DNA of 64,000 nt from an uncultured Acidobacteriota bacterium (GCA_963791145.1 CAWBRT010000004.1:11217-75216); one strand, 5' to 3'. Shown: positions 1,952 through 64,000, counted from the stretch's first letter. The notes: generated by a model from the letters alone, not told the origin. Program-made: numbers and translations.

Positions 1952-3774
1952 CGAGTGCCGCAATCTCCTTGTCAAAAACGGACCAGACCTGTTCGCTCAT
2001 GCTCGAGAAGAACTCGCGGGTAATGAATGGCCCCAGACCCAGGGTCTGATTGGGACGGTCGAAAACTTCGGAGGGTAGCGTGTAATCCGATCGCTCGAAG
2101 CCCTGCTTACGTTCCAGCCACAAGCCCCGCATGTAGGCGCGACGAACGGTGGCCAGCAATTCCGCGGCGGTGATCTCAAGTCCTATCTCATGCTTGAGAG
2201 CGTTGACCAGCAAATCGGGGCTTGTCCCATTGAAACTTGCAAAGTCCCGTCATGTCATCCCGCATCTGGTAGAGGCCGCGTTCGGTGATGGCCTTGACCC
2301 AATACTCCAAGGACATGTCTCGCTCAGCCAGCGGCAAAAGGAGAGTGGCCATCGACATGTGGCCGCCGGCGATGGCAAATGGATATCCCGGATTGGTATC
2401 GGGCAGGTAGGCCGGCAATTCCACTCCCTTGCAGTGCATGGCGTAACCGGTTTCTCCCACTTGCTCGGATAAGCCGTTTACGCCATGCCCGATCTCGGGA
2501 TACCGGCCCGCCGCCGTACCTTGAATCAGGTCCTTGACCTTTTCGACTTCGCCAAAGGTGGCCCCGTTGCAGATTGGTTTTTCGGGATGCCGCTCATTGT
2601 AGTCGAGCACATAGGAAATCGTGGCCCCGAGTGAGATCTGGTCCATTCCGTTGTGGTCGACCATGGAAAGAGCTCACATGCCTGGTTGGGATCGTGAATT
2701 CCCAGATTAGTCGACAGCAGATTCACGGGTTCATAATCGAACTTGGAGAGGAAGCGCCCGCGCTCGCCGGGCGCGGTCTTTTCGTAAAGTTCTTGTGGCA
2801 GTGGATGCCGCAACGGAAACACGATTCCGCCTTAATGTCGAATTGCGGCTCGACCTCGGGACGCGACATCAGCTCGGGTTTGCCGTCCCCCTTCGGCCTG
2901 AAATTGTTCTGCGGTAATAAGTTGACCGGCCCCAACATTTCGTTGCCGCTCCAGGTGCCGCCGAGCCCGCCTTTGTCCTTCTCGCGAAACTTGCGCGAGC
3001 CGGGGCCCGTGCCGATTTCGCGGTTGATGTCGCGGATCTCCGGCTTTACCCTCTAGCTGGTCGTGCGCCTGCGCCACGATGGCGATCACGTTCTTGTAGC
3101 CCAGCACGCTTCCCATGCCGCCGCGGCCCGCGAAGCGGCACTTGTCATCGCCCGATTTCAGAAGGTTTTCGGTGCTCAGCGCCACGGCGCCGAAATAGCA
3201 ACTCTGATAGTGTTCGCCGGCCGGCCCGATTACCGCAAAATGCGCATCGGCATATTCCTGCTTCAGAAGGTTAATTTTCTTGTAGCACGCAAGACCCAGC
3301 AGATGGCGGGCCGGCTTGAATTCCACCTTGGGTCCGTCGCCGCCACCGCGAATTACGATCATGATCGGCTCACTGGCGCGTCCCTCAAAAATCAGTTCGT
3401 CGAGCCCGGTCCATTTCAGTTTGGATCCGAACTTGTCGCTGCCTGCCGACCACATAGCGCCGGGCAGTCCCTTGTTGGAAACTTTCAGTGGACTGTAGGC
3501 CGAAAAGTAGGTCCGTAGCCCTGTCATGAGGCTCGAACCCGTCAGGATGCCGGTGTTCACGATAACGGGGTTTTCCGGTGAATAAGCCCGGGTAACAGTG
3601 CGCGCAGCCAGAAATTGAAGGGAGCGGCCCACCCCACCCAGAACCTCTTCCAGATTTTGGCAAGCAACCTCTGCGATGCGTATACCACGGGAAGACAAGT
3701 CAATCGTGCAGCGAGAATAAAAAACTGCCTTGGGATCGTTTCGTGTTTCGTTGAAAGATAAGCGCACGGCGCAT
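1920..3774 (-). pseudogene. Tungsten-type aldehyde:ferredoxin oxidoreductase (AOR) gene split over at least four frames
   Basis: AOR-like segments in the ORFs 2832-3857 (N-terminal domain: GIRIAEV...LGGVGRSLQFLAAR...IVIRGGGDGPK), 2526-2822, 2188-2664 and 1920-2213 (C-terminal domain); a poly-T tract sits near the N-terminus. Confidence 0.65.
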
Positions 3775-46882: not shown

Positions 46883-48166
46883 TTAGCTTCTTACGAGCTT
46901 CTCGACGAACCAGTCGGAGATGTAGGCCATCCCAATTGTCATGTTGTCGCCCATAGTATGCTCGCTGCCGCCTTCTTCGCGAGTAAAGATCTTTAGGGTT
47001 TTGTCTTTACTGCCCACGGCCGCAAACTCCTTGCGAGCGGTTTCCATTGAGATCTGTGCATCCGCCTCGCCATGCGTCAGGAGGAACGGGCACTCGATCT
47101 TCTGGGCAACACCTTCCAGGGTAAATGGCTCGAGCTTCTTTAGCGCCTGATCCAGTGTATCTACCCCCATAAACCAGGTAATGTGTTCGCCAGGGACCGA
47201 TAGTGAGGTCTTGAATGCCGCGTCTATGCGGCTCTTCCACACAGCATGGTAGTCGTACTGGGCTCCCCAGGCAACGCACGCCTTGAACCGTTTTTCGAAG
47301 GCAGCGGCACGGGGCGCAAAGTATCCACCCAGACTAATGCCCACGACGCCGATTCTGCCTTTGTTCACGTCAGCCCTCTTCTCCAGGTAGTCGATTGCCG
47401 CACCACCTGCGACTTCGGAATCGTGCCGGGCCGGCATCCCGCGAAAACGGATGGCTTCGCCGTTGCCGGGTGCGTCGATAATCAGGCAGGCCATACCGCG
47501 TTTGGCAAACTCCGGCACGCCTCGGAAATACTGGAGCTCTTTGGTAATATCCAGGCCATCAAAGAAGACAATGGTTGGCAATTTGGCGTCCGCGTCCCGC
47601 CTTTTCACGAAATAGGCTGGCAGGCTTTTGCCGCCCTCGAAGGGGACCTCTACTGCCTCGATTGAAAGGAAGGAAACGTCGGGAATTCCTTTCTTGAAGA
47701 GTTCCACCGCCCGGGCATAGGCTCGCTGCGTTTCCTGGGTCCGGGGCTGCCGCAACCTTTCTCCGATCTGAATGTAGTTAGCGGCGCGCATATAAGCGTT
47801 TGAGGCAGTTTGTATGTTTCTCTTCTCTTTTGCCTGTTCGGCTAGCAGAGCGACGCGCTCTCCCATCTTGTTCCATTCGGCGAACCAGGCGGCATTGTCG
47901 CCCGCCTTGCCATGCAGGGCAGAGCAAACTTTATAGACTTCACCCATGTCACCTCCGCCCCACGCGAAGCCACCGATTGTACTGCGGACAGAAGAGGACC
48001 AAGTATAGTTCCCCGGAAACATCATGAAGGTCTCAGGTGGAGTTTTTACTTCGGCCGCCTTGGCGAAGGGCGAAGCTCCTGCTAGAGTGGCTCCCGCGAC
48101 GGTGGCTGCCCCTAGGGCCAGAAAATCTCTCCTTTTAATTTTCTTTCCATTTTTGCCGTGGTTCAT
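46883..48166 (-). CDS. Tat-exported alpha/beta-hydrolase-fold protein
   Basis: GAGGGAGGGAAGG RBS; RRDFLALGAATVAGA Tat signal; nucleophile elbow GISLGG. Confidence 0.65.
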   Translation of the reverse strand: MNHGKNGKKIKRRDFLALGAATVAGATLAGASPFAKAAEVKTPPETFMMFPGNYTWSSSVRSTIGGFAWGGGDMGEVYKVCSALHGKAGDNAAWFAEWNKMGERVALLAEQAKEKRNIQTASNAYMRAANYIQIGERLRQPRTQETQRAYARAVELFKKGIPDVSFLSIEAVEVPFEGGKSLPAYFVKRRDADAKLPTIVFFDGLDITKELQYFRGVPEFAKRGMACLIIDAPGNGEAIRFRGMPARHDSEVAGGAAIDYLEKRADVNKGRIGVVGISLGGYFAPRAAAFEKRFKACVAWGAQYDYHAVWKSRIDAAFKTSLSVPGEHITWFMGVDTLDQALKKLEPFTLEGVAQKIECPFLLTHGEADAQISMETARKEFAAVGSKDKTLKIFTREEGGSEHTMGDNMTIGMAYISDWFVEKLVRS

Positions 48167-48329
48167 ACGGTTCCTTCCCTCCCTCGAAACAAACGATATG
48201 CTGACAATTTGCAAATGCCTCGATGAACATATTGCACTCATCGACGTAGCTGAATCAATGGCAGCAGGCTCCTGAGGTCCCTGCTGTGAACTCATCTCAT
48301 GCTTTTCGCAGCCATTCCGATGGCCTTAA

Positions 48330-48635
48330 TTATCTTTGTATAGCGGTGCAGCGACATAGATTTCCCGAAATAGCATCTTTAATCTCATCTTCTGACGGCT
48401 TTGGATTCTTATCCAACAAAACCTTCGCGGTCAAAACCATGCCCGGCGTACAGTACCCGCACTGTATGGCGCCAGCTTCGGTAAAGGCCTGCTGAATAGG
48501 ATGAAGATGCTGCTCGTCCCCCAGCCCTTCGATGGTCAGCACTTTCTTGCCGGCGACGGTTGCCGTCAGCAGGATGCAAGTGCGCACCGATTTGCCGTCA
48601 ATTATGACAGTGCAGGTTTGCCGGGCCTTGGGCAA
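48330..48635 (-). pseudogene. C-terminal two-thirds of a CoxS-type [2Fe-2S] small subunit of molybdo-hydroxylases; the N-terminal ~45 aa are missing
   Basis: ...QTCTVIIDGKSVRTCILLTATVAGKKVLTIEGL...QCGYCTPG...GNLCRCT matches CoxS from the CGAC motif onward; no ATG (begins at TTG); no large-subunit gene adjacent. Confidence 0.55.
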
Positions 48636-48790
48636 AGGTGATACCGCACTCCAGAAGGAAACCGCGGATCTGGTTGATCAGCGCTGTGCGACGATGTACC
48701 AGCCAGTCTCGCACCGTGATGAAGCGCTGCAACTCGCGGGGACACCTTCCGCTGGTACCAAGAAAAGAGGTGTCGCCGGAGTCTTCGTTA
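48636..48790 (-). mobile_element. IS110-family transposase fragment (~45 aa) fused in frame upstream of the CoxS stub
   Basis: Minus-strand translation ...ELQRFITVRDWLVHRRTALINQIRGFLLECGITFAQGPA matches the conserved RTxLINQLRGLLxEFGI region of IS110 transposases. Confidence 0.45.
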
Positions 48791-49720
48791 TTACCAGACC
48801 GTCAATGTCATGTTGTCGATCCATTCGTGGATTGCTGTCCCCGAAGAATTCCCGTCAAGCTGGGCTTCAGTCCCTATTGTCGGCCCCCAGCCATTACTCA
48901 GGGCGGAATACGTGGCATTTAGCACAGTGGGATTTCCGTCGATCACTAGCGTCTGATAGGTATAAGTGTGATTCGCGAGACTGCTGGTGACGTACAGTTG
49001 GACGTGATGCCACGTGTTTACCGTCCAACCGCAAGGCAGGGCTGGAGAGACGGCTACCCATCTATTGCCAGCAGAGTCCCACAACCGCCAAATCTTGCCA
49101 TCGGCGTAATCACACTGGATGGACATATCGTATTTGTAGCCGTTTACATACCAGTCGGGATCATATTCAAAAGCCTGAACGCCATCAGTGTTGTCTGTAT
49201 AAATCCAGAAATCCTCTAGCAAATGCGAGATCGAGTTTACCAAGGCTGCATCGGTACTGTTGTGCCACCAAAAAAGAGCGTTGGCACCAGCGCCTGCCGA
49301 AGAAATCTCCATGCTCGCCCCGCTCAAAGAGGGGGTAGTCTGGTTTAAAGCAGCAAAGTACGAGCTATTTCCTGAGCCGCCAGCGCAACTCGATGCGTTA
49401 CAGCTACCTGTGAGAGCAACTGATTGAAGATTAGAGAACACGCTTGCATTCGCCGGGGGAGTCGGCAAAACGGACGCCGCTCCCGAGGCACCGGAGGTCG
49501 TCGCCGTTGAGCCCGAAGTTGTCGTAGCGGGCGTCGTAGGTGACGAGGCTGGACTACTTGGAGTTGACGAGCCAGAACTCGACGCTGGTGTCAGTGCCGC
49601 CGAAGCTGGATTATTTTGCGACGAGGAAACTGCATTTGGGCTTCCACCGCAACCCACCAAATACATCGATAAACCAACTATCAAGCCGACTAGAAGGAGT
49701 CGAACTGCTGCTCTGCTCAC
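48791..49720 (-). CDS. Lipoprotein with a Ser/Thr/Pro-rich linker and an uncharacterised C-terminal domain
   Basis: AGGAGG RBS then GTG start; lipobox LVGC; long S/T/P-rich linker. Confidence 0.55.
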   Translation of the reverse strand: MSRAAVRLLLVGLIVGLSMYLVGCGGSPNAVSSSQNNPASAALTPASSSGSSTPSSPASSPTTPATTTSGSTATTSGASGAASVLPTPPANASVFSNLQSVALTGSCNASSCAGGSGNSSYFAALNQTTPSLSGASMEISSAGAGANALFWWHNSTDAALVNSISHLLEDFWIYTDNTDGVQAFEYDPDWYVNGYKYDMSIQCDYADGKIWRLWDSAGNRWVAVSPALPCGWTVNTWHHVQLYVTSSLANHTYTYQTLVIDGNPTVLNATYSALSNGWGPTIGTEAQLDGNSSGTAIHEWIDNMTLTVW

Positions 49721-49886
49721 TAAGACCCTCCTGAGAAGTTCTGGAGTGAACAGAGAGTACGGGTCTGTTTAGCTTCTTAACATCGGTACTTGTATTTAGA
49801 ACTGCTGGGGTTGCACCCCTAGCATGCGATTTATCGCCATTATCTGTCTCTAGGTGGCGCTCTTAGCGGTCACGACCCATTGCAAC

Positions 49887-50258
49887 TCATAAGAGATTTG
49901 ATTGCATGTGCGCATACAGGCGGTACGATTTTGGAACGCACGCCAAGAAAGGTTGGCCATATACCACCGGGTGATGTCGCGGCTGGCATCCGGACACGAA
50001 CTTGGTTGCAGATTGGTCGTTGAGTGTTGGCGACCTCGTAGGCAACTCCCGAAAGTGGATCTGGGAATAATGTTCCGGGTGCAGGATGATCTGGTGACCT
50101 GTTGGTGTATGTACTATGTACTCGGGCGACAATGCCACATAGGTGCCTTTCCCGTGCCGATAACCATTAATTTTGCAAAATGAAGCCATTGAGCTCTCCG
50201 CCGTCAAATACTCGCCATTGAGATCCATCAGACGCGGAGCGACCAATCGCCGGAGCAA
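49887..50258 (-). CDS. Hypothetical protein (123 aa)
   Basis: ORF only; no recognisable motif. Confidence 0.25.
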   Translation of the reverse strand: MLRRLVAPRLMDLNGEYLTAESSMASFCKINGYRHGKGTYVALSPEYIVHTPTGHQIILHPEHYSQIHFRELPTRSPTLNDQSATKFVSGCQPRHHPVVYGQPFLACVPKSYRLYAHMQSNLL

Positions 50259-50529
50259 CTGCTTTTGCGCGCGACTTCGGACGTCTTCGCGATATCTACT
50301 GTAGAACGCTGATCAAAAGTAAAACAGGTAGACGGTGGTTCGCGGCACAGAAGATCCAATGCGAGTGCAAGCACTCACACGCACTTCGCGGAAGATGCGC
50401 TTCCAGTGCGGTATTTGTTGCAATACTGTTGTGCCAGATTGAAATTTTCCGGCGTCGTTGTTTGTCAAAAACACTTGCTAATTCAGAGTCACTCATTCAA
50501 AATCTTCGTACCGAGAGGAGTCCATCGAG

Positions 50530-51213
50530 ATGATGCGGAAAGTAGTGTCGCTCGTAATGTGTCTGCTTCTTCCAGGCTTGCTTCTGGCCGGGAATCCAGG
50601 CGCCGGAATCGGCAATTTCGTTGGCGATGTTGCCTTGAATGGTCGCTCTGTGCCGCCGAGTACCGCTGTTTTTCCCGGAGACAAACTCGTCACGGGACGT
50701 AATGCTTCCGCGTACATTACTCGCCCGGGCTTCACCATGGCGGTTGATAGTGAATCCTCGGCGCAGTTGCTGGCCGAAGGTGCGCGAGTGCTCAGCGGGA
50801 GCTCGGTGGTCACCCTGAAGCCGGGGAACGTAGTTGAATATGATGACCTTCATATCAGCGCTGCTTCTGATAGCGCGAGGGTGCGAATTGTGTCGCGTCC
50901 AGGCTCGCAGATGATCGCCTCGCTCCAAGGCACTCTGAAGGTCAGCGACACCTCCGGAATGATCACCGTTCCACAGGGTCATGCGCTTTTGGCGAAGCCC
51001 TTGGATCCGCCTCCTAACTTGGGGGATCAGCCCGACAAATCCTCGCCGCCGGCGGGCGCCATAAAAAAAGGTGTTGCGCTTAAGAAATGGGTAATGATCT
51101 TTGGATCGGCCGGTGCCGCAGGTGGTGTCGGCGCATGGGCTGCGGTTCAGTCCTCGAACAAGAACACCAATATCAACAACATTAATTCGTCGATTAGTCC
51201 TTCCGTGCCGTGA
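50530..51213 (+). CDS. Secreted hypothetical protein (227 aa)
   Basis: GAGAGGAG RBS; signal peptide VVSLVMCLLLPGLLLAG; followed by a terminator. Confidence 0.5.
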   Translation: MMRKVVSLVMCLLLPGLLLAGNPGAGIGNFVGDVALNGRSVPPSTAVFPGDKLVTGRNASAYITRPGFTMAVDSESSAQLLAEGARVLSGSSVVTLKPGNVVEYDDLHISAASDSARVRIVSRPGSQMIASLQGTLKVSDTSGMITVPQGHALLAKPLDPPPNLGDQPDKSSPPAGAIKKGVALKKWVMIFGSAGAAGGVGAWAAVQSSNKNTNINNINSSISPSVP

Positions 51214-51227
51214 GTTTGTAAACGCTC

Positions 51228-51262
51228 TCGACCAAAAGCCCTCGCTTCGGCGAGGGTTTCTG
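51228..51262 (+). terminator. Rho-independent terminator
   Basis: aaagCCCTCGCttcgGCGAGGGtttctgctttct. Confidence 0.6.
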
Positions 51263-51290
51263 CTTTCTGAAGAGATTTTCGCGAATCCTT

Positions 51291-51322
51291 AATTAGGGGA
51301 TGTGAGAATTAGGGGATGTGAG
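51291..51322. repeat. 16-bp tandem direct repeat, two units
   Basis: aattaggggatgtgag aattaggggatgtgag. Confidence 0.6.
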
Positions 51323-51556
51323 CACCGCATTCGCAAGCGCTGCCCCGCCAGATAGTGGAACCGAGCGTGGCGGGACACCAGCAGCTTAGCTCATGTCCCG
51401 GCCATCTCGCCTTCGAATCAGCGTAAGCTCTTCTTCGTCAGTCGATTATGATGTGGATAGTAACTAAGCCAGTGGCGGAAAAGCTTAACTGTGTGATGGG
51501 CGCCTAATTAGTGCACAAGCGTAAAAGATCTGAGTATTAATGAATTTTGCTTAATA

Positions 51557-51585
51557 AACCCTCGCACTGCGAGGGTTTTTGCATT
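51557..51585 (+). terminator. Second terminator with the same stem as 51228-51262
   Basis: aaaCCCTCGCactGCGAGGGtttttgcattt. Confidence 0.55.
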
Positions 51586-51779
51586 TCGGCCGCAACGCGA
51601 GGATCAACCAGTTCTCCTTGCGCTTCGTTCAATTCATCATTAACGTACTGGTAACGAGGTCGTGGGGCATAAGCAAGAGAATTTGTGCTCGGCGTTGTTG
51701 CATCCAACAACTCGACGTACCCTTCGGCTTCGACGCGCTACTCAATTTTGTATGGACCCTGGTTAATAGGAGAGGCCCT

Positions 51780-53456
51780 GTGCGTCGTTTGGGGATCGGA
51801 TTGTTGTTGCTGTGCAGTATGAGCGCTGTTGCAGCGCCCCCGCCGCCGAACCGCGGCGAGCTCTCACCCGCCTTGCAGCAAATCGTTGACCGAATCATCA
51901 GCCGTGAGCACGCGCTTATGGTCGCCTTGAAGTCCTTTTCGCCGTTGGCGGAAACCTATATCCAGGAAATGCGCCCGGACAGGGACCTGGGTTACGCCCC
52001 TGCGCGTGACTATTACTTCATGGCCAAGCTCGACCTGCGGAACGGATTGCGGGAAGAATCGTTTGAGAAGCGGAAAGGAGCATTCACTCTCCAGGGCTTC
52101 TGGAAGCCTCTGGAAAAGCCGTTCAACCTCCGCACGGCGAATTTGAACAGCGTGGGAATTGCCATTCAGCCGCTGGTGATCGACCTCAAGGCGTTCGATA
52201 GGGCGCATTACGACTTCAGTTTCGTGGGGCGGGAGTTCCTGGGCAAAGTTCGCACCCTGGTATTCGATGTCGCGCCCCGTAAGCACGCAGGCAACGGGCG
52301 CTTTGTTGGCCGCATTTGGGTCGAAGACGTTGATTACAACGTGGTGCGCTTTAACGGAACCTACAAAGGAGCGCCGCATTTCACCAGCTATGTGCATTTC
52401 GACAGCTGGAGGGCAAACGTCAACGGGCGGCAGTGGCTCCCGGCCTATGTCTACCTGGAAGAATCGGATCTCGTGGCGGGATTCCGTCATGTGCGCATCA
52501 AGGGGGAGACAACGGTCTGGGGTTACGGCCTGCAGTCGGGACGCAAACAGCAGGAGTTGACCGATATCATCGCCGATTCGAGCATTGATGACCGCAGCGA
52601 AAGCGCGCCGGACTATTCGCCCGTGCAGCGCCAACGGCTATGGGAAAGACAGGCCGAGGACAACGTCATCGAGCGGTTGCAGAAGGCCGGGCTGGTGGCC
52701 CCCAGCGGCGATGTCAGTAAAGTTCTGGAAACGGTCATCAACAACCTGGAAGTTACCAACAATCTGAACATTGAGCCGCCGGTGCGTGCCCGCGTTCTGC
52801 TGACCTCGCAACTGGAGACGTTTACCGTCGGCCATACCATCGTCATCAACCGTGGACTGGTGGACGTTCTGCCGGATGAAGCGAGTCTGGCCATGATGTT
52901 GGCGCACGAACTTGCGCATATCGTGCTCGGCCATCAACTGGAGACCAAGTACGCATTCAGTGACCGCCTGCAGTTTCCCGATTGGGAGGCGTTTCGCCGG
53001 TTACAGCTGAAACGCGACAGAAGAGAGGAAGACGAGGCCGACGGCAAAGCGATGGCCCTGCTCAAGAACTCGCCCTACGCCGACAGGCTGGCCAGCGTCG
53101 GGCTGTTCTTGCGTGAGCTGTCCAACGAGGCGCCGCGGCTGAGCAATCTGTTGAGCCCGCATTTGGGAAATCGCCTGGTCAAGGGGCGCGAGTTGCCGCG
53201 ACTGGCCGAAATCATGCGTTCGGCGCCTCCGCTGCGCCGGCAGGACGTGGCTCAGGTCGCCGCCCTTCCCCTGGGCAGCCGCCTCAAGGTGGATCCCTGG
53301 GACGCGCACATCGAATTGATGAAAACTGCTCCCACCGCGCTGCTGGCGGCGCGTGAGAAAAGGCCGTTCGAGGTAACTCCAGTAATTCAGAACTTAACGC
53401 GAAAGACCGAACCCTCTCAAAAGAACGAGGTCGTCGTCGGCCAGGGAGGCGAATGA
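51780..53456 (+). CDS. Secreted zinc metallopeptidase (HExxH, M48-like) with a large N-terminal domain of unknown function
   Basis: AGGAGA RBS then GTG start; signal peptide LGIGLLLLCSMSAVAAP; MMLAHELAHIVLGH zinc-binding motif. Confidence 0.55.
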   Translation: MRRLGIGLLLLCSMSAVAAPPPPNRGELSPALQQIVDRIISREHALMVALKSFSPLAETYIQEMRPDRDLGYAPARDYYFMAKLDLRNGLREESFEKRKGAFTLQGFWKPLEKPFNLRTANLNSVGIAIQPLVIDLKAFDRAHYDFSFVGREFLGKVRTLVFDVAPRKHAGNGRFVGRIWVEDVDYNVVRFNGTYKGAPHFTSYVHFDSWRANVNGRQWLPAYVYLEESDLVAGFRHVRIKGETTVWGYGLQSGRKQQELTDIIADSSIDDRSESAPDYSPVQRQRLWERQAEDNVIERLQKAGLVAPSGDVSKVLETVINNLEVTNNLNIEPPVRARVLLTSQLETFTVGHTIVINRGLVDVLPDEASLAMMLAHELAHIVLGHQLETKYAFSDRLQFPDWEAFRRLQLKRDRREEDEADGKAMALLKNSPYADRLASVGLFLRELSNEAPRLSNLLSPHLGNRLVKGRELPRLAEIMRSAPPLRRQDVAQVAALPLGSRLKVDPWDAHIELMKTAPTALLAAREKRPFEVTPVIQNLTRKTEPSQKNEVVVGQGGE

Positions 53457-58984: not shown

Positions 58985-60262
58985 TTAGCGGTACAGATCC
59001 TCCCTGGTCAGCGGCAGCTCTGTTTGTCCGCGCTCGGGCTTGCTGAGCAGCAATTGATATATGCTCAAGCGGCCGCGCCGGAAGCCGTGCGCCGAACCCG
59101 CCATGTAGATACGCCAGGTACGATAGACGACGTCATCGGTGAGGCGGCGCGCATCATCGACCCGCGCCTCCAACCGGTTCACCCAATGGCGAAGCGTCAT
59201 AGCATAATGCAGGCGCAGGTTCTCGACGTCAATTACCTCGAATCCGCAGCTTTCGGCCGCGCTTACGGTAGCGAGCAGCGGCACCAGTTCGCCGTCTGGA
59301 AAAACGTATTTCTCTACAAACGACGGACCCCTTCGCCGGTAGGTTGCCGAAGCCGCAATGCCGTGATTGAGGAATAGGCCTTGCGGGCGCAGCAAGCGCC
59401 AGGCTTGCTCGAAATACTCCAGCAGCAGCGATTCGCCAACATGCTCGAACATGCCAACGCTGACCAGTTTGTCAAAGGATTCGGATTGAGGAACTTCCCT
59501 GTAGTCGCACAAATCTACCTGGCAGCGGTCGGCCACTCCCGCCTCGTGAATGCGCCGGCGAGCCAGTTCGACTTGAGAGGAGCTCAAGGTGATGCCGTGG
59601 GCATAGACGCCGTAATTTTTGGCTGCGTAAATGAGCAGACCGCCCCATCCGCAGCCGACATCAAGCAGACGCTCTCCCGGCTTGAGGCGCAATTTGCGGC
59701 AGATGTGATCCAGCTTCTGCTCCTGCGCGGTGTCGAGGTCGTCGTCGAGAGAGCGGAAATAGGCGCAGGAATACGTCATGGACCGGTCGAGGAAGAGAGC
59801 GTAAAAATCATTGGAAAGGTCGTAGTGATAGGAAATGGCGGCCCGGTCGCGCTCCCTGGAATGGATGCTGCCGGCCAGCTCCGCCGCTCCGCGTTTGGCG
59901 GTGAAACGCGCCGGCACGGCTGCAAGGGCGCGCAACTTCAGCTTGGCACTTAGGGGCAAGGGTTCGGCCAGCAAGCCCTCGACGAACTCGAAGGCGGCTT
60001 CGATGTCGCCTTCAATATCGAAATCGTCGTAGATATAGGCTTCGCCGAGTGACAGCTCGCTGGGAGAGAGCAGCAATTCCCGCAGCGCGCCTGGGTTCTT
60101 CAGCACAATGGTGAAGCGGGGCCGCTCCGCCTTACCCCACAGGGTTCCGTCCCAAAGCCGCACACAATAGCCGTTGCCGGAGACTCTGCAGGCCAGTCGT
60201 TCAAGATATCGAATGGCAGTTCCGACAGTCTCGCTGTTCGGAGCCGTCGCGTTAGAGGTCAT
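58985..60262 (-). CDS. Cyclopropane-fatty-acyl-phospholipid synthase family SAM-dependent methyltransferase
   Basis: YDLSNDFYALFLDRSMTYSCAYF and SAM-binding motif LLDVGCGWGGL. Confidence 0.8.
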   Translation of the reverse strand: MTSNATAPNSETVGTAIRYLERLACRVSGNGYCVRLWDGTLWGKAERPRFTIVLKNPGALRELLLSPSELSLGEAYIYDDFDIEGDIEAAFEFVEGLLAEPLPLSAKLKLRALAAVPARFTAKRGAAELAGSIHSRERDRAAISYHYDLSNDFYALFLDRSMTYSCAYFRSLDDDLDTAQEQKLDHICRKLRLKPGERLLDVGCGWGGLLIYAAKNYGVYAHGITLSSSQVELARRRIHEAGVADRCQVDLCDYREVPQSESFDKLVSVGMFEHVGESLLLEYFEQAWRLLRPQGLFLNHGIAASATYRRRGPSFVEKYVFPDGELVPLLATVSAAESCGFEVIDVENLRLHYAMTLRHWVNRLEARVDDARRLTDDVVYRTWRIYMAGSAHGFRRGRLSIYQLLLSKPERGQTELPLTREDLYR

Positions 60263-60537
60263 GGTATTCCTCCTCTATCGCAAGCTCGAATTGAGAAACT
60301 CTCAACATCTATGCTAGCGAAAAATACCGCCGGGGAAAAGCCTTAAGCAGGTTAATACCGGCATGGAACGGGTTGCCAACCACGAATGGCGAGTGACTGA
60401 GAGGATAGGTAGTGCCGCAGCGTGCGCTAAAGCAGGCAGGCAAGCAGTGAGTTACGGGCGGCAGATGCAGGTTGCTGTTGGTGTAAACTGATTTCGCCCC
60501 AGCAGACGCAGAGAGAGCTGCCTGGGACCCCATAGTG

Positions 60538-60575
60538 GCCCTGTAGCTCAGATGGATAGAGCAGCGGTTTCCTAA
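60538..60575 (+). pseudogene. 5' half of tRNA-Arg(CCT): acceptor 5' strand, D-arm, anticodon stem 5' strand and anticodon loop only
   Basis: GCCCTGTAGCTCAGATGGATAGAGCAGCGGTTTCCTAA then non-pairing AAACTATAACC; no T-arm (GGTTCGAATCC-like) within the next 400 nt. Confidence 0.5.
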
Positions 60576-60735
60576 AAACTATAACCCTCGCTGGCTCAAT
60601 CATTTACAACGAGTTACAACTGTCAATGTGAACCAATTACGGGTCAAACTGGAGCGTTTTGGGCACGTCTGAAAACTACTGTGTACCGGATCGTGTACTA
60701 GATTGTGCGCTGTGAGATCATGCGGTTGGTGAAAC

Positions 60736-62037
60736 ATGACTGACCCCCAAAAAGGTGCGCGGCAGGAGAACAAACTCTCAAAGCAAGAGATCAGTCCGCA
60801 CGAGAGTATCGCGGAGAACATCGATCAACTCTTGCATGTGCCGGAAACAAACGCCGACGTTCATCTTGGGGATGTGAACGACGTTTTGTCGGAAGGTAAT
60901 TCGATCAGCGCAAAGATCAAGACTCTCCAAGCGACGAACGAAATTGCGGCACAACGGCTAAAGGAATGCTTGGGAAGCGACCCAAATGCGACCATGCCGT
61001 TGACACAACAACTCCAGCGCCTCATTGCCGATCAGGCCCAGGAAATCAAAGAATTGGAACGGGCTGAATTCCGAAGTCGTGTTCTTTCAACTCTGCGACA
61101 GCCTCAATACAGCGCATTGCGGGATGTTTTTGGCTCAGTTGTTGAGATGCGGCTAAAGTCCTCGACTTCAGAGTCCTCTTTAATCCGGCTTTTAGCCTCA
61201 AACTTGGCCCATTTGCTGCGATCGATTAACGATCTGTGCGCCTCGTACATTCGGGCTTTGGGAGATAGCGAAAAGGCGCGAGGAAAGTGCGAAGCTGATT
61301 TGCGAAAACGGGCTAAGAAGGACGCAGATTCCAAGTTCAGTGGAGCTTTTGGCGATTTCTTCGCGGAGATGGCAGCGGTTTCTGAACTCAGCAAAATGGG
61401 CGTCACTGAGTTTGAGCCTGTATTAACAGGCGTAAACGAATCAGTCGATTATCGGGCGAAGCGTGCGGGAAAGGATGTGTGTATCGAAGTCAAAAACATC
61501 CGCGCACCTATTACGATCTTTGACTTTTGCGCAGACGAGCTTCGACGGCTTCATGCTGAAGCTCCAACTGATTATCCATTCCGACTCACGGTTCGCTGTG
61601 AAACGGATAACACCATTACGGCGGCACAACAGGATGCAATCACTACATATCTTGCTTCTGTGAAGGGCCGCAAGGTTCCGTTTGAGGATTCGCTTAAACT
61701 TGAGCATGGCGTTAGGGTCGTACTCACGGTTAGGGCTGGATCGGGACAGGCGATGCAACTCAGGGCAATGCGAGTGGATGCTCCCGATACACTGAACATC
61801 GAAGGCTTCTTGAACAAGGTGCACGATAAAACGATTAAAGCAATGCAGCAGTTCGACAGCTCAGGTTGTTCAACACAACTGCTGGTCCTGAATATTATGA
61901 CCCCGATGGCGAGTCTGGATCAGACCTATGTTGACGCGGCCAGAGAACAGGTCCGGCAGGATTCAAACTCGACTGTCGAACCTGTGATCCTTTTCTATCA
62001 TGCCTTGATTCTCGATGAAGGAACCGACTCCGATTAG
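60736..62037 (+). CDS. Hypothetical protein (433 aa): helical/coiled-coil N-terminal half and a possible PD-(D/E)xK nuclease-like core
   Basis: Lower GC than surroundings; motif pattern E(AEMAAV)...D(SVDYR)...E-V-K(CIEVKN) in residues ~215-260. Confidence 0.45.
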   Translation: MTDPQKGARQENKLSKQEISPHESIAENIDQLLHVPETNADVHLGDVNDVLSEGNSISAKIKTLQATNEIAAQRLKECLGSDPNATMPLTQQLQRLIADQAQEIKELERAEFRSRVLSTLRQPQYSALRDVFGSVVEMRLKSSTSESSLIRLLASNLAHLLRSINDLCASYIRALGDSEKARGKCEADLRKRAKKDADSKFSGAFGDFFAEMAAVSELSKMGVTEFEPVLTGVNESVDYRAKRAGKDVCIEVKNIRAPITIFDFCADELRRLHAEAPTDYPFRLTVRCETDNTITAAQQDAITTYLASVKGRKVPFEDSLKLEHGVRVVLTVRAGSGQAMQLRAMRVDAPDTLNIEGFLNKVHDKTIKAMQQFDSSGCSTQLLVLNIMTPMASLDQTYVDAAREQVRQDSNSTVEPVILFYHALILDEGTDSD

Positions 62038-62067
62038 CCCCGCTAGATATGAATTGATGCACTTCTG

Positions 62068-62229
62068 TTAGCCATTGTCTCTCGGTGGAGGCGGTGGCCA
62101 AGGTTCGGGCCGGTCAATCTTTTCGATTCGGTCCCTAGTTCTTCCGGGAGGTTCGCTTCGAGGGGGTTGCGACGGCGGTGGTGGTGGCGGTGGTGGTGGT
62201 GGCTCCGGTGGTTTGCGTCTATCATTCAT
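62068..62229 (-). CDS. Small Pro-rich ORF encoded over a GGT/GGC microsatellite; may be non-coding
   Basis: Poly-Pro run from (GGT/GGC)n at 62160-62215; start abuts the stop of the upstream gene. Confidence 0.2.
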   Translation of the reverse strand: MNDRRKPPEPPPPPPPPPPSQPPRSEPPGRTRDRIEKIDRPEPWPPPPPRDNG

Positions 62230-62714
62230 TGTAAGCCTCGCATCCGTTTGACTTCCGCTGCCGCTTTCCATCGCAGTCTCTCACTGTACGGAAGTCGTGT
62301 TTCATCAACCTTGGCCTGCCTATCGCGGATTGCCTCGAATTGCTTCCAGTTCCTCAGCTCCCTCAAATCGTTGTCCTGTTCCCAAAGAAGCTCGTATTTG
62401 TTGAGAAGCTCTTTCCAGGTACCGACCAGCGATGACATCTTTTTGAGCTTTTCTGACGAACACAAGAGCGGATACGCAATGGAAGCAATGCACGCGACAG
62501 CAGAGAATACCTTCCAATAGAGCGGATGAGCAGACCAGATGCTCCAGCCCGCAACAGTACCCGAAGCAGAAACGGCGATTAGAACCCTGAAAGCAATGTC
62601 AAACCGCACGTACCGGCGCGACAATGCCAACCAGTAGCAAACATTAAGATGTGCGTCAAGCATCGCGTTCCAAAGCGCGATTCGATGATCGGGGGCTGGC
62701 GTTGCGGAACTCAA
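62226..62714 (-). CDS. Small membrane protein with two N-terminal TM helices and a charged cytoplasmic tail
   Basis: Hydrophobic segments LIAVSASGTVAGWSIW and VFSAVACIASIAYPLL, followed by a charged helical C-terminus. Confidence 0.4.
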   Translation of the reverse strand: MSSATPAPDHRIALWNAMLDAHLNVCYWLALSRRYVRFDIAFRVLIAVSASGTVAGWSIWSAHPLYWKVFSAVACIASIAYPLLCSSEKLKKMSSLVGTWKELLNKYELLWEQDNDLRELRNWKQFEAIRDRQAKVDETRLPYSERLRWKAAAEVKRMRGLQ

Positions 62715-62736
62715 TGGTACAGCCTCTCGCTACCTG

Positions 62737-63156
62737 TCATTCGCAGTGACCAGTAAACCAAGGGTAATTCGGCTGAATATTACTATTAAAGCATTGTAAT
62801 TCGTATAAGAGAAATTCAGCAGTATCCACTTCGTCAGGTTCAAAGAACGCGACGAGCCCGGCCCGCTGTCGGTCTAATGCCGCGAACAGCAAGCGTTCCA
62901 CAAACAGCGATTGCTCTTCGGTAATTTCAAACGTCATTATTGAATCGGTATTGCGGGCCGCGTACTGATCCAGCAGCGGAATCCAGATATTCACCCATTC
63001 GTGCTCGGAAAATGTGAGATCGGTTTTTGTTTCACGCGCTACGCCGAAAACACAGGCAAGCACACACGCCTCTTCGCTATTGGGGTTAAGCTCAAGACTT
63101 CGGGGAGGGGGCATACAATCCGGCCTCGTATCTGCGCTGAACGCAATCGGATTCAT
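62737..63156 (-). CDS. Hypothetical protein (~140 aa)
   Basis: Start inferred at MNPIAF..., 3 nt after the stop of the upstream small ORF. Confidence 0.3.
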   Translation of the reverse strand: MNPIAFSADTRPDCMPPPRSLELNPNSEEACVLACVFGVARETKTDLTFSEHEWVNIWIPLLDQYAARNTDSIMTFEITEEQSLFVERLLFAALDRQRAGLVAFFEPDEVDTAEFLLYELQCFNSNIQPNYPWFTGHCE

Positions 63157-63323
63157 TCTGCCGATTTCTTGCGCTGGGCAATCGCCCTTTCGTGCTTGAT
63201 GCTGATTTCGTGGATGGGGCGTTTCGCGGCCCACTCCGCCCGCGTCAACGGAGCACTGATGAATCCGCAATCTGGGCACGTGTAGTGCATTGCGCCTGCG
63301 GGGTGCTTCTTTCTTCTCGCCAT
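63153..63323 (-). CDS. Small basic protein with a C-P-D-C putative zinc-ribbon motif (56 aa)
   Basis: MARRKKHPAGAMHYTCPDCGF...; first gene of a four-gene minus-strand string. Confidence 0.3.
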   Translation of the reverse strand: MARRKKHPAGAMHYTCPDCGFISAPLTRAEWAAKRPIHEISIKHERAIAQRKKSAE

Positions 63324-63858
63324 GCCGGAAGCATACAACGACCCCGCCGAATGCCAAGTATCAAGAATGTGACTGTTCAATTTAGGTGCAATAGCGCCCT
63401 TCCTTGGGCACAGGCGAGCGATGTTTACCATTAAGACTCCACTTTGATTTTTGCTGAGCGTGCGCTGATCCATCGACCATGATCTAGCCAGCCCTGCCCT
63501 CCCCCGCCGTCCACACCCGGCTGGTGCGATCCTAACGCAGCCTTTCCCTGAGAAAGTGAAAAACCGATGTACATAATTTGTTCTGTCCCTAAGCGGCCAA
63601 GACCCGCACCCAGAGCAGGTGAGGCAAGCTGGCCAACGCAACAGGTGGTTGTTGGAATCGCACAGGTTTTTTTGAAACTTGCTGCTAAGAAGCCGACAAA
63701 AAGAGGGCTGGACGCTGATGAGGTCGTTGGGCTTCTCAAGGACATGTTCGGCCCGCTCTTCAAAATCTGACCGCTCACCATGAGCCTCCGCAGAGTGTTG
63801 GCGGGGGCTTTTTATTGCGCTGTATTGGCGAGAAAATCTGGTGTAAGCTCCTGAGAAC

Positions 63859-64000
63859 ATGGCCAATTCTGAGGCAGGCACAAAGCGGGCGGGGCGGCCC
63901 TCATCGCTTCTGGATACGCGGGTAATCTACTGCGGCGACAATCTGGAGCAGTTGCGAAACTGCCCGACGCCTGCATTGACCTGATCTACATCGATCCGCC
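63859..64000 (+). CDS. N-terminus of an N6-adenine/N4-cytosine DNA methyltransferase; runs off the window and contains one homopolymer frameshift
   Basis: ...VIYCGDNLEQLR then, after a -1 shift at CGAAACTG (~63935), KLPDACIDLIYIDPP, the canonical MTase N-terminal motif. Confidence 0.55.

What the first reader, a model, noticed from the sequence alone, without database searches (positions are those of the whole stretch)
60538..64000. Orphan 5' half of tRNA-Arg(CCT) marks the edge of a lower-GC island of unknowns next to a DNA methyltransferase
The tRNA sequence is intact through the anticodon loop and then diverges, with no T-arm downstream. A 5'-half stub is the less common relic. It implies an element whose attachment site carried the 5' portion, so an intact tRNA-Arg copy and any integrase should lie at the far end, beyond 64000. 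The first gene inside (60736-62037) has a coiled-coil N-terminal half and a motif pattern compatible with a PD-(D/E)xK nuclease core. Further in there is a tight minus-strand string: a CPDC small protein, a 140-aa unknown, a 2-TM membrane protein and a Pro-rich microsatellite ORF. Facing it is the start of a DNA methyltransferase. The layout resembles a defence or mobile island, and none of the four-plus unknowns matches a family I recognise. This is the best candidate in the window for an undescribed system.
Basis: partly seen in the sequence, partly recalled or inferred. Interest (0 to 1): 0.75.

Follow-up and report, generated by a model that had tools for sequence, protein, structure and literature searches.

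The report
Genomic island junction in tRNA-Arg gene
The half tRNA gene is most likely the scar left where a mobile element inserted into an acidobacterial tRNA-Arg gene through a known but less common "mirror-image" attachment site, and the genes behind it look like separate cargo genes of unknown function, not a demonstrable new defence system.

Summary
Window 60537-60576 is an exact copy of the first 39-40 nt of tRNA-Arg(CCT), cut right after the anticodon loop. There is no 3' half, intron or other tRNA in the window. A related Acidobacteriota genome (L013) has the intact tRNA at the same place beside the same CFA-synthase gene. The DNA to the right has the lowest GC of any 3.4-kb stretch in the window.

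Stubs cut at the same base are common: 75 of 80 metagenome loci and 4 viral contigs. In nine loci a tyrosine integrase reads into the stub. Three contigs show the layout "5' stub ... intact tRNA", and one of these (L178) keeps an integrase remnant next to the intact tRNA. This class is already known: 159 of 3919 Islander islands carry a 5' fragment.

The cargo is not a co-conserved system:
- The 433-aa protein belongs to an uncharacterised PD-(D/E)xK-like family (invariant D238, E251, K253).
- The 162-aa 2-TM protein is a solitary mobile gene.
- The two small ORFs have no relatives in other loci that carry the 2-TM gene.
- The Pro-rich ORF is probably not coding.
- The methyltransferase start carries a frameshift.

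Verdict: an ordinary kind of feature, with modest interest.

The parts
60537..60576 (+). 5' half of tRNA-Arg(CCT), positions 1-39, ending with the anticodon loop (anticodon 60571-60573). Read as the host-derived half of the left junction (attL).
   Evidence: Sequence. 41-nt 100% match to the intact syntenic tRNA in L013. No tRNA called by ARAGORN or Rfam. Logan unitig L001 starts at 60547, where the read graph would be expected to branch between this junction and an intact tRNA copy (inference).
60577..60735 (.). Element arm next to the junction. It contains AATCATTTAC at 60598-60607, a motif found at +22 to +33 after stubs of acidobacterial type and resembling an IHF site (WATCAANNNNTTR).
   Evidence: The motif occurs after the stub in the window and in 7 other stub loci, against 8 of 5132 background 90-nt windows. 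The IHF reading is inference. No terminator-like site on the + strand here.
60736..62037 (+). 433-aa protein: an N-terminal long helical hairpin (about 1-120, absent from relatives), a helical domain, and a PD-(D/E)xK-like alpha/beta core.
   Evidence: 81 relatives, typically about 320 aa, align to residues 108-425. D238, E251 and K253 are invariant in 36 sequences. AF2 pLDDT is 88.7 with helix 198-220, strands 223-228, 239-243 and 246-255, helix 261-275, strand 282-288. The codon model favours this frame, including the N-terminal 105 codons. No Pfam, PDB, PADLOC or PHROG hit.
62174..62212 (.). (GGT)n / (ACC)n microsatellite between the convergent genes. It is the source of the 'Pro-rich ORF' 62068-62271, which is probably not a gene.
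   Evidence: TRF. The codon model scores the ORF worst in its own frame. It was not called as a gene in L001 or L002. Both Logan unitigs break here.
62226..62714 (-). 162-aa protein with an N-terminal helix, a two-helix membrane hairpin (about 38-62 and 65-88) and a C-terminal helical region. It is a solitary mobile cargo gene.
   Evidence: 31 homologues at 43-69% identity. Hydropathy. AF2 pLDDT 87.5. Contexts are prophage-like or integrated elements and a site next to a Gp49/HTH toxin-antitoxin pair. A distant relative on a plasmid lies two genes from an AbiEii toxin gene. Only sub-threshold hits to 2TM/SLATT models.
62737..63114 (-). 125-aa acidic ORF of unknown function (net charge -14).
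   Evidence: Gene call in L002. The codon model favours this frame. Not found next to the 2-TM gene in other loci. Its 90% cluster has 2 members.
63153..63431 (-). 92-aa basic ORF with a single CPDC motif. Coding status uncertain.
   Evidence: Gene call in L002. The codon model is ambiguous. Its cluster has 1 member. Only sub-threshold family hits.
63859..64000 (+). 5' end of a beta-class N6/N4 DNA methyltransferase gene (…IYCGDNLEQL… / …DLIYIDPP). The reading frame is broken by a 1-nt deletion at 63954/63955.
   Evidence: Sequence and three-frame translation. The in-frame variant from unitig L002 hits type II MTase models (PADLOC 2.9e-20, PHROG 1.9e-21).

Best explanation
The stub is the left junction (attL) of an integrative element that inserted into the host tRNA-Arg(CCT) gene by tyrosine-integrase recombination at the anticodon loop. 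The element belongs to the minority class whose attachment site (attP) carries the 5' part of the tRNA gene, not the usual 3' part.

After integration, the host's own 5' half stays next to the CFA-synthase gene. The host tRNA promoter presumably stays with it. The 5' half is now followed by the element's arm and cargo. The element's copy of the 5' half, with the integrase gene reading into it, is fused to the host 3' half and rebuilds a working tRNA at the far end, beyond 64000.

The 3.4 kb visible here is the end of the element away from the integrase. It carries independently acquired accessory genes: a PD-(D/E)xK-type putative nuclease, a solitary 2-TM membrane protein, two orphan small ORFs and a frameshifted DNA methyltransferase.

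Shown:
- the exact stub and the synteny with an intact tRNA in a relative;
- the foreign composition;
- the existence and frequency of this junction type elsewhere;
- the catalytic-motif conservation.

Inferred:
- that this particular island still ends in an integrase plus an intact tRNA;
- that the crossover lies in the anticodon loop;
- any function of the cargo.
For: (1) Native locus. In L013 (CFA synthase 75% identical) the intact tRNA-Arg(CCT) lies about 250 nt from the CFA-synthase start, in the same orientation. It shares upstream sequence (GTTGGTGTAAACTG) and a 5' half identical to the window's.
(2) Same cut elsewhere. The closest relative L012 (78%) has a stub cut after ...CCTAA. So do 75 of 80 metagenome loci and 4 of 5 viral loci found with a pattern that excludes standard intact tRNAs (C at position 40).
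(3) Integrase geometry. ORFs matching a home-made integrase profile end 18-263 nt upstream of the stub and read toward it in L095, L096, L098, L109, L114, L163, L164, L171 and L176. Five were scanned against Pfam and match Phage_integrase: L095, L098, L109, L114 and L163. L109 and L114 carry the window's exact stub sequence.
(4) Whole islands in one contig. L178 has the stub at 244-282, an IS-interrupted integrase C-terminus at 2952-3380 (+) and the intact tRNA at 3402-3478. L160 and L110 show stub then intact tRNA 7.1 and 1.8 kb apart, with no integrase detected. L234 shows an integrase followed by an intact tRNA.
(5) Shared arm motif. AATCA[CT]TTA[CA] lies at +22 to +33 after the stub in the window and 7 stubs of acidobacterial type, against 8 of 5132 background windows.
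(6) Foreign composition.
(7) Junction supported by an independent assembly. Logan unitig L001, assembled from run ERR11523656, spans 29 nt of the tRNA plus the island.
(8) The class is documented. Islander lists 159 of 3919 islands with a 5' tDNA fragment lying upstream of the intact gene (PMC4383910).
Against: - The far end was not seen. No integrase and no intact tRNA-Arg lie in the window.
- No empty site is available from the same species.
- Some stub-bounded islands elsewhere have no detectable integrase (L160, L110), so this one may be a decayed relic.
- The stub pattern could only detect breaks at positions 38-40. 'Always the same base' is therefore partly a selection effect; longer stubs ending after the anticodon stem also exist.
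- The sequence right after the stub does not look like an inverted copy of the anticodon stem, so the exact crossover site is not established.
Confidence: 0.7

Rival explanations
1. Disruptive integration. The element shares only a short core in the anticodon loop with the host gene, so the tRNA is not rebuilt. The far end would carry an orphan 3' half. tRNA-Arg(CCU) would be either dispensable, with its codon read by another tRNA-Arg isoacceptor, or supplied by the element, as in 'tRNA-dependent lysogeny'.
For: - Such integration is documented for mycobacteriophages: about 10-bp cores at the anticodon loop, the host tRNA not reconstructed, and a phage tRNA that complements it (PMC10865867).
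- Its attL would look exactly like this stub.
- The window holds no other tRNA.
Against: - Where the attP or tandem form is visible in relatives, the element carries the whole 38-nt 5' half next to its integrase, not a short core. This includes L109 and L114, which have the window's exact stub.
- Intact tRNAs follow stubs in L178, L160 and L110.
Confidence: 0.12
2. Relic of a conventional island. An island like the one in L013 (intact tRNA, then an integrase gene converging on its 3' end) once sat here. A later deletion or rearrangement removed the tRNA 3' half and the integrase and fused the 5' half to unrelated cargo.
For: - The same tRNA in L013 carries a conventional island whose integrase is 42% identical to a stub-associated one.
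- No integrase is visible here.
- The methyltransferase is frameshifted, which suggests decay.
- L012 shows heavy remodelling at this locus, with an IS1595 transposase and a methyltransferase block inserted.
Against: - A random deletion would not be expected to end at the same base as about 80 independent stubs.
- Nor would it leave the arm motif at the usual distance.
Confidence: 0.1
3. Assembly chimera. The contig joins two genomes, or two places in one genome, through the shared 38-nt tRNA sequence. Host flank and island would then not be neighbours in any cell.
For: - The source is a metagenome-assembled contig.
- The tRNA 5' half is a repeat in the sample. Unitig L001 starts inside it, and a second haplotype exists further right.
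Against: - The repeat is only about 40 nt, shorter than typical short reads and than the larger k-mers assemblers commonly use.
- The stub-to-island join is present in k-mers of an independent assembly.
- The host flank matches the flank of the intact tRNA in L013 right up to the gene.
- The resulting structure is one seen many times elsewhere.
Confidence: 0.05
4. The visible genes form one new defence system: nuclease, membrane effector, small partner proteins and methyltransferase working together.
For: - Homologues of the nuclease-like family sit beside an HmaA-type helicase and a REase-ARP protein (L093), and beside a weak SIR2-like protein (L247).
- 2-TM homologues sit in prophage accessory positions, next to a toxin-antitoxin pair, and near an AbiEii toxin gene.
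- Ends of integrated elements are known hot spots for defence genes (PMC9122126; title and abstract only).
Against: - No two of the genes co-occur elsewhere.
- They lie on opposite strands with a microsatellite between them.
- There are no significant PADLOC hits.
- The methyltransferase is frameshifted.
- One ORF is likely non-coding and another is doubtful.
Confidence: 0.05

Closest known systems
Islands with a 5' tDNA fragment (Islander database class; tyrosine-integrase islands in tRNA genes, anticodon-loop sublocation)
   Same: - A 5' fragment of the tRNA gene at the upstream edge of foreign DNA.
- The break at the anticodon loop.
- Integrase genes next to the same fragment in related elements.
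- An intact gene downstream in complete examples.
   Different: - For this island the intact tRNA and the integrase were not seen.
- In the viral collection, 5'-type sites at tRNA-Arg(CCT) were about as frequent as the conventional type (10 versus 8 loci). In Islander overall they are about 4% of islands.
Conventional tRNA-Arg(CCT) island in relative L013 (intact tRNA followed by a convergent tyrosine integrase gene, HTH_17 and a 981-aa methyltransferase)
   Same: - Same host locus beside the CFA synthase.
- Same target tRNA.
- Its integrase is 42% identical to the stub-associated integrase of L114.
   Different: - Mirror orientation: there the element supplies the 3' half and the integrase gene lies on the tRNA's 3' side.
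- Here the 5' half is left behind and nothing resembling an integrase follows.
tRNA-dependent lysogeny of actinobacteriophages (PMC10865867)
   Same: Integration at the anticodon-loop region leaves a host 5' part joined to element DNA.
   Different: There attP shares only about 10 bp and the tRNA is lost, with a phage tRNA complementing it. Relatives of this element carry the full 5' half, which predicts that the gene is rebuilt.
PD-(D/E)xK nucleases (Hjc and RecU resolvases, type II restriction enzymes such as HincII)
   Same: - Invariant D...ExK on predicted strands 2 and 3.
- A conserved helix before the sheet.
- Alpha-beta-beta-beta-alpha-beta order in the model.
- Weak local Foldseek matches to Hjc, RecU and HincII.
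   Different: - No significant sequence or fold match (best Foldseek E 0.05; Hjc E 0.33, probability 0.6).
- Extra helical N-domain and a C-terminal alpha/beta domain with a conserved DNT motif.
- A further about 110-aa helical hairpin found only in this copy.
- No adjacent methyltransferase.
SLATT / CBASS-type 2-TM effectors
   Same: - Small protein with a cytoplasmic helix, a tight two-helix membrane hairpin and a helical tail.
- Found in mobile-element and defence neighbourhoods.
- Sub-threshold hits to PADLOC 2TM and RT-SLATT models in 7 of 31 family members.
   Different: - No Pfam SLATT hit in any of 31 members.
- No conserved partner enzyme (SMODS, SLOG, RT, TIR) nearby.

Membership tests
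tRNA-gene island with 5' tDNA fragment (tyrosine-integrase island) | An end fragment of a tRNA gene, identical to the full gene, ending at a recognised crossover sublocation (anticodon loop) | tested here: met
   40 nt identical to the intact orthologous tRNA of L013, ending right after the anticodon loop. The comparison is with a relative, not with a copy in the same genome.
tRNA-gene island with 5' tDNA fragment (tyrosine-integrase island) | Intact cognate tRNA gene downstream of the 5' fragment, in the same orientation | not testable with these tools
   None in the window. The source contig beyond 64000 was not retrievable. It is present in analogous contigs L178, L160 and L110.
tRNA-gene island with 5' tDNA fragment (tyrosine-integrase island) | Tyrosine integrase gene inside the island | not testable with these tools
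   None in 60577-64000. Expected at the far end, as in L178, L234 and L114.
tRNA-gene island with 5' tDNA fragment (tyrosine-integrase island) | Foreign composition, and different occupancy of the site in relatives | tested here: met
   Lowest GC of all 3.4-kb stretches; GC3 0.50-0.58 against 0.71-0.73. L013 has an intact tRNA with a different island. L012 has a stub with different DNA after it.
PD-(D/E)xK nuclease superfamily | Conserved acidic residue on strand 2 and (D/E)xK on strand 3 | tested here: met
   D238, E251 and K253 are invariant in 36 family members. In the model they fall at strands 239-243 and 246-255.
PD-(D/E)xK nuclease superfamily | Significant fold similarity to a solved member | tested here: inconclusive
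PD-(D/E)xK nuclease superfamily | Metal-dependent nuclease activity | not testable with these tools
   Needs biochemistry.
SLATT 2-TM effector domain | Two-helix membrane hairpin flanked by cytoplasmic helices | tested here: met
   Hydropathy peaks at 38-62 and 65-88. AF2 helices 9-54, 63-83 and 86-112.
SLATT 2-TM effector domain | Profile match to SLATT families | tested here: not met
   No Pfam SLATT hit at E<=1 in 31 members. PADLOC 2TM/SLATT hits only at E 0.003-0.02, in 7 of 31 members.
SLATT 2-TM effector domain | Genomic link to a signal-generating or sensing partner (SMODS, SLOG, RT, TIR) | tested here: not met
   Neighbours differ in every locus and none is such an enzyme.
Type II restriction-modification system | Adjacent, intact methyltransferase and endonuclease genes | tested here: not met
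   The nuclease-like gene and the methyltransferase start are 1.8 kb apart with three opposite-strand ORFs between them. The methyltransferase frame is broken.
Beta-class N6/N4 DNA methyltransferase (PF01555 type) | N-terminal region with the DPP[FY] catalytic motif matching family models | tested here: inconclusive
   The in-frame variant from L002 matches type II MTase models (2.9e-20). The window copy shows IYCGDNLEQL and DLIYIDPP in two different frames and is cut by the window end.
Group I intron in a tRNA anticodon loop | Intron RNA fold, with the 3' exon following within a few hundred nt | tested here: not met
   No Rfam intron match at E<=10 in 60000-64000. No 3' exon in the window.

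The most novel reading that the evidence does not exclude
The most novel reading not excluded has two parts.

(a) tRNA-Arg(CCT) may be a preferred target of one integrase clade that exists in both mirror orientations, with 5'-half-carrying elements far more common at this tRNA than the about 4% seen across all tRNAs.

(b) In this island the first cargo gene lies 160 nt downstream of the retained host tRNA 5' half (and presumably its promoter), on the same strand, with no terminator-like site between. It is an uncharacterised PD-(D/E)xK protein with a unique coiled-coil extension. It may therefore be switched on only by integration, and may act, alone or with the 2-TM protein, as a new defence or exclusion function.
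Probability: 0.1. Interest if true: 0.55.

Novelty: new member of a known kind. Interest (0 to 1): 0.3.

Why it matters
For annotation, a 5' tRNA half that ends at the anticodon loop can be read as a precise island boundary. It predicts where to find the integrase and the rebuilt tRNA. Tools that expect only 3' fragments would miss such islands, and at tRNA-Arg(CCT) they appear to be common in soil and other metagenomes.

For biology, the locus adds two unnamed protein families to the list of candidates for testing. One is a PD-(D/E)xK-like family seen beside Hma-type and SIR2-like genes. The other is a solitary 2-TM family seen in prophages and beside toxin-antitoxin genes. It does not by itself reveal a new kind of system.

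Tried and rejected
- Group I intron or split tRNA. Rejected: no Rfam match and no 3' exon.
- Fetching the rest of the contig. Exact 61-nt scans of genome and metagenome collections found nothing.
- Third homology search, with the family profile. It added nothing.
- Profile searches against PDB sequences for both families. No hits.
- Viral-contig searches for both families. No usable pattern, or no relatives.
- tblastn against annotated phages and plasmids. One distant 2-TM hit only.
- Conserved 3-gene operon (92 aa, 125 aa, 2-TM). Rejected: the upstream genes are not homologous in other loci.
- Cargo shared with other stub-bounded elements. None.
- Read-through from the tRNA promoter as a general design. 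No strand bias of the first gene after stubs, 22 on the same strand versus 19 opposite.
- Second copies of the att core in the window. None.

Full report
**1. The observation**

The window reads GGCCCTGTAGCTCAGATGGATAGAGCAGCGGTTTCCTAAA at 60537-60576 on the + strand. This is a tRNA from position 1 through the D arm, the 5' strand of the anticodon stem and the seven-base anticodon loop TTCCTAA, with anticodon CCT. The next bases (AACTATAACC...) do not pair back. ARAGORN finds no tRNA anywhere in the 64 kb. Rfam finds no tRNA and no intron, even at E<=10 in 60000-64000. Two searches for a T arm plus acceptor 3' strand give only chance-level matches. The stub is therefore real and truly lacks its 3' half.

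**2. Is it the host's own gene?**

The gene to the left (58985-60262, minus strand) is a cyclopropane-fatty-acid synthase. Its closest relatives are in Candidatus Korobacteraceae / Terriglobales MAGs. In L013 (75% identity) an intact tRNA-Arg(CCT) lies about 250 nt from the start of that gene, in the same orientation as the stub. Its first 40 nt are identical to the stub and there is a shared block upstream. So the stub is the host gene in its native place.

In L013 the tRNA is followed directly by a tyrosine integrase gene converging on its 3' end, an HTH_17 protein and an island with a 981-aa methyltransferase. This tRNA is therefore an integration site in the lineage.

**3. Is the right-hand DNA foreign?**

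GC of 60576-64000 is 0.521. All other 3.4-kb stretches average 0.574 (sd 0.023, minimum 0.529). Tetranucleotide distance is in the top 4%. Third-position GC is 0.50-0.58 in the island ORFs and 0.71-0.73 in the two host genes. The shift is modest but real.

**4. Why a 5' half?**

The closest relative, L012 (78%), also has a tRNA-Arg(CCT) stub that ends after ...CCTAA, followed by unrelated DNA. There a methyltransferase / DUF3800 / IS1595 block has additionally been inserted between the CFA-synthase gene and the stub.

I then scanned public collections with GGATAGAGCAGCGGTTTCCTAAND, a pattern that standard intact tRNAs (C at position 40) cannot match.
- Viral contigs: five loci, four of them stubs.
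Of the 80 loci returned, ARAGORN intact and 75 are stubs ending at the same base. Their acceptor stems come from many different lineages.

With a profile built from four integrases, I found ORFs that read toward the stub and end 18-263 nt before it in L095, L096, L098, L109, L114, L163, L164, L171 and L176. Five of these were scanned against Pfam and match Phage_integrase: L095, L098, L109, L114 and L163. The ORFs in L164, L171 and L176 are short fragments (126-132 aa), and L096 was not scanned. L109 and L114 carry exactly the window's stub sequence.

Three contigs contain both ends.
- L178: stub at 244-282, an IS-interrupted integrase C-terminus at 2952-3380 (+), and an intact tRNA-Arg(CCT) at 3402-3478 with the same 5' half.
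- L160: stub then intact tRNA 7.1 kb apart, no integrase detected.
- L110: stub then intact tRNA 1.8 kb apart, no integrase detected.

In viral contigs that carry the intact 5' sequence:
- 8 have the conventional layout, with the integrase gene downstream and convergent;
- 1 has an integrase upstream of the intact gene (L234);
- 5 are slightly longer stubs that end after the anticodon stem, three of them with an integrase upstream.

Together these describe the mirror image of the textbook arrangement. attP carries the 5' part of the tRNA gene with the integrase reading into it. Integration leaves the host 5' half behind as a stub and rebuilds the gene at the far end.

This class is known. The Islander paper lists 159 islands with a 5' fragment against 3760 with a 3' fragment, and requires a 5' fragment to lie upstream of the intact gene (PMC4383910).

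The integrase of L114 (mirror type) is 42% identical (E 1e-90) to that of L013 (conventional type). One integrase family therefore uses the same target in both orientations. That is plausible because the anticodon stem-loop is a dyad; this last point is inference.

**5. Does the window's junction belong to that class?**

The post-stub DNA of the window contains AATCATTTAC at 60598-60607. The motif AATCA[CT]TTA[CA] lies 22-33 nt after the stub in the window and in seven other stubs with the acceptor/D-arm sequence GCCC[CT]GTAGCTC[AG]GAT (L114, L123, L128, L161, L164, L168, L176). Three of these have an integrase ORF or fragment upstream. The motif occurs in only 8 of 5132 background 90-nt windows. 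In L114 and L128 it fits the IHF consensus WATCAANNNNTTR exactly; reading it as an arm site for a bending protein is inference.

An independent assembly of run ERR11523656 contains a unitig (L001) that starts at 60547 and runs into the island. So the stub-to-island join is supported by that assembly, and the unitig starts where a branch toward an intact tRNA copy would be expected (inference).

The far end could not be examined. I put 0.7 on the attL reading. The rest is shared among disruptive integration of the kind described for 'tRNA-dependent lysogeny' (PMC10865867), a decayed conventional island, and an assembly chimera.

**6. The cargo**

(a) 60736-62037 (+), 433 aa.
- A word-indexed search found one relative. 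The exhaustive HMMER search found 81 representatives, mostly about 320 aa, aligning to residues 108-425.
- In a 36-sequence alignment D238, E251 and K253 are invariant.
- The AlphaFold model (pLDDT 88.7) places them on consecutive strands after a conserved helix, the classic PD-(D/E)xK order.
- There is no Pfam, NCBIfam, PADLOC, PHROG or PDB-sequence match.
- The first about 110 residues, a long helical hairpin, are unique to this copy, yet score as coding.
- Homologues sit beside an HmaA-type SNF2 helicase (E 1.7e-169) and a REase-ARP protein (L093). Another sits beside a weak SIR2-like protein and a 1401-aa unknown (L247). This hints at a defence neighbourhood and nothing more.

(b) 62226-62714 (-), 162 aa.
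- It has 31 homologues with a conserved helix, membrane hairpin and helical tail.
- They occur in an integrated element with AAA_25, HTH_17 and a terminase (L003), in a prophage early region (L008-L011), and between ftsQ and a Gp49/HTH_37 pair (L005-L007). A distant relative lies two genes from an AbiEii toxin gene on a plasmid.
- The genes upstream of it are not homologous between loci.
- No Pfam SLATT match. Only sub-threshold PADLOC 2TM/SLATT matches, in 7 of 31 members.
- Most likely it is a stand-alone membrane-acting exclusion or abortive-infection protein. This is inferred from context only.

(c) The small ORFs.
- The 125-aa acidic ORF scores as coding. The 92-aa basic CPDC ORF is ambiguous. 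Their 90%-identity clusters hold only 2 and 1 sequences. No homology search was run on either.
- The Pro-rich ORF is a by-product of a (GGT)n microsatellite between convergent genes.

(d) The methyltransferase start.
- It matches type II beta-class enzymes in the variant unitig L002.
- In the window a 1-nt deletion splits IYCGDNLEQL and DLIYIDPP into different frames.

**7. Comparison, novelty and verdict**

The structure works like, and most probably is, an island of the known 5'-fragment class at an anticodon-loop site. Two of the class's four defining features were met and two could not be tested.

The cargo contains a new, unnamed branch of the PD-(D/E)xK fold and an unnamed 2-TM family. 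Neither is categorically new, and there is no evidence that they act together.

The finding is a correct and careful piece of reading. Its main structural prediction is supported by comparison. The claim of 'an undescribed system' is not supported. Interest 0.3; new member of a known kind.

Noticed in passing
In the viral collection, 5'-type sites (10 loci) were about as frequent as conventional 3'-type sites (8 loci) at this tRNA. Across all tRNAs in Islander they are about 4%.
   Followed up: partly
L013 8474-9625 versus L114 (integrase upstream of its stub): Integrases used in the conventional orientation and in the mirror orientation at the same tRNA are 42% identical over their full length (E 1e-90). 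The orientation of the att site relative to the tRNA has therefore flipped within one integrase family.
   Followed up: partly
L012 282-497 (contig JBEKQR010000068.1): Downstream of L012's stub lie two direct repeats of about 100 nt, 122-124 nt apart and 86-88% identical. Each ends in an anticodon-arm look-alike (TAGAGCAGCGG-TTTGACTG-ACCGCT and TAGAGCAGCGG-GTCGATTG-ACCGCT). They may be relic or secondary attachment cores. Unexplained.
   Followed up: partly
L012 687-5377: In the closest relative, a 4.7-kb block has been inserted between the CFA-synthase intergenic region and the tRNA stub. It holds an N6/N4 DNA methyltransferase (514 aa), a 298-aa unknown, a DUF3800 protein and an IS1595 transposase. 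This tRNA locus is remodelled repeatedly.
   Followed up: partly
window 63870-64000 versus L002: A unitig from the same sequencing run is identical to the window from 62174 to about 63870. It then diverges by about 12% inside the methyltransferase gene and is in frame there. The sample therefore holds two methyltransferase haplotypes on an otherwise identical backbone, and the window's copy has a 1-nt deletion at 63954/5.
   Followed up: partly
window 62174-62212: A (GGT)n microsatellite lies between the convergent 433-aa and 2-TM genes. Both Logan unitigs break inside it, which suggests repeat-length variation in the population.
   Followed up: no
L099, L125, L130, L143, L145, L154-L156, L163; and L102, L103, L110, L159, L161, L176: Two further families of conserved 50-60-nt sequence directly follow stubs in other lineages: TTCTAGGCTAGGTAT...TAGAACTTTTGTGT and TTCTTC..GAAGGC.ACGCGACGTAACCTCA. 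They are probably element-arm sequences of distinct integrase groups.
   Followed up: no
L093 599-6672; L247 9656-16656: Homologues of the 433-aa protein lie next to an HmaA-type SNF2/NOV_C helicase and a REase-ARP protein. In another contig a homologue lies next to a weak SIR2-like 408-aa protein and a 1401-aa protein with no family. Both settings may be defence islands.
   Followed up: partly
window 47000-52400: A second stretch of lower GC (0.533-0.538 per 3.4 kb) inside the window. Not examined.
   Followed up: no
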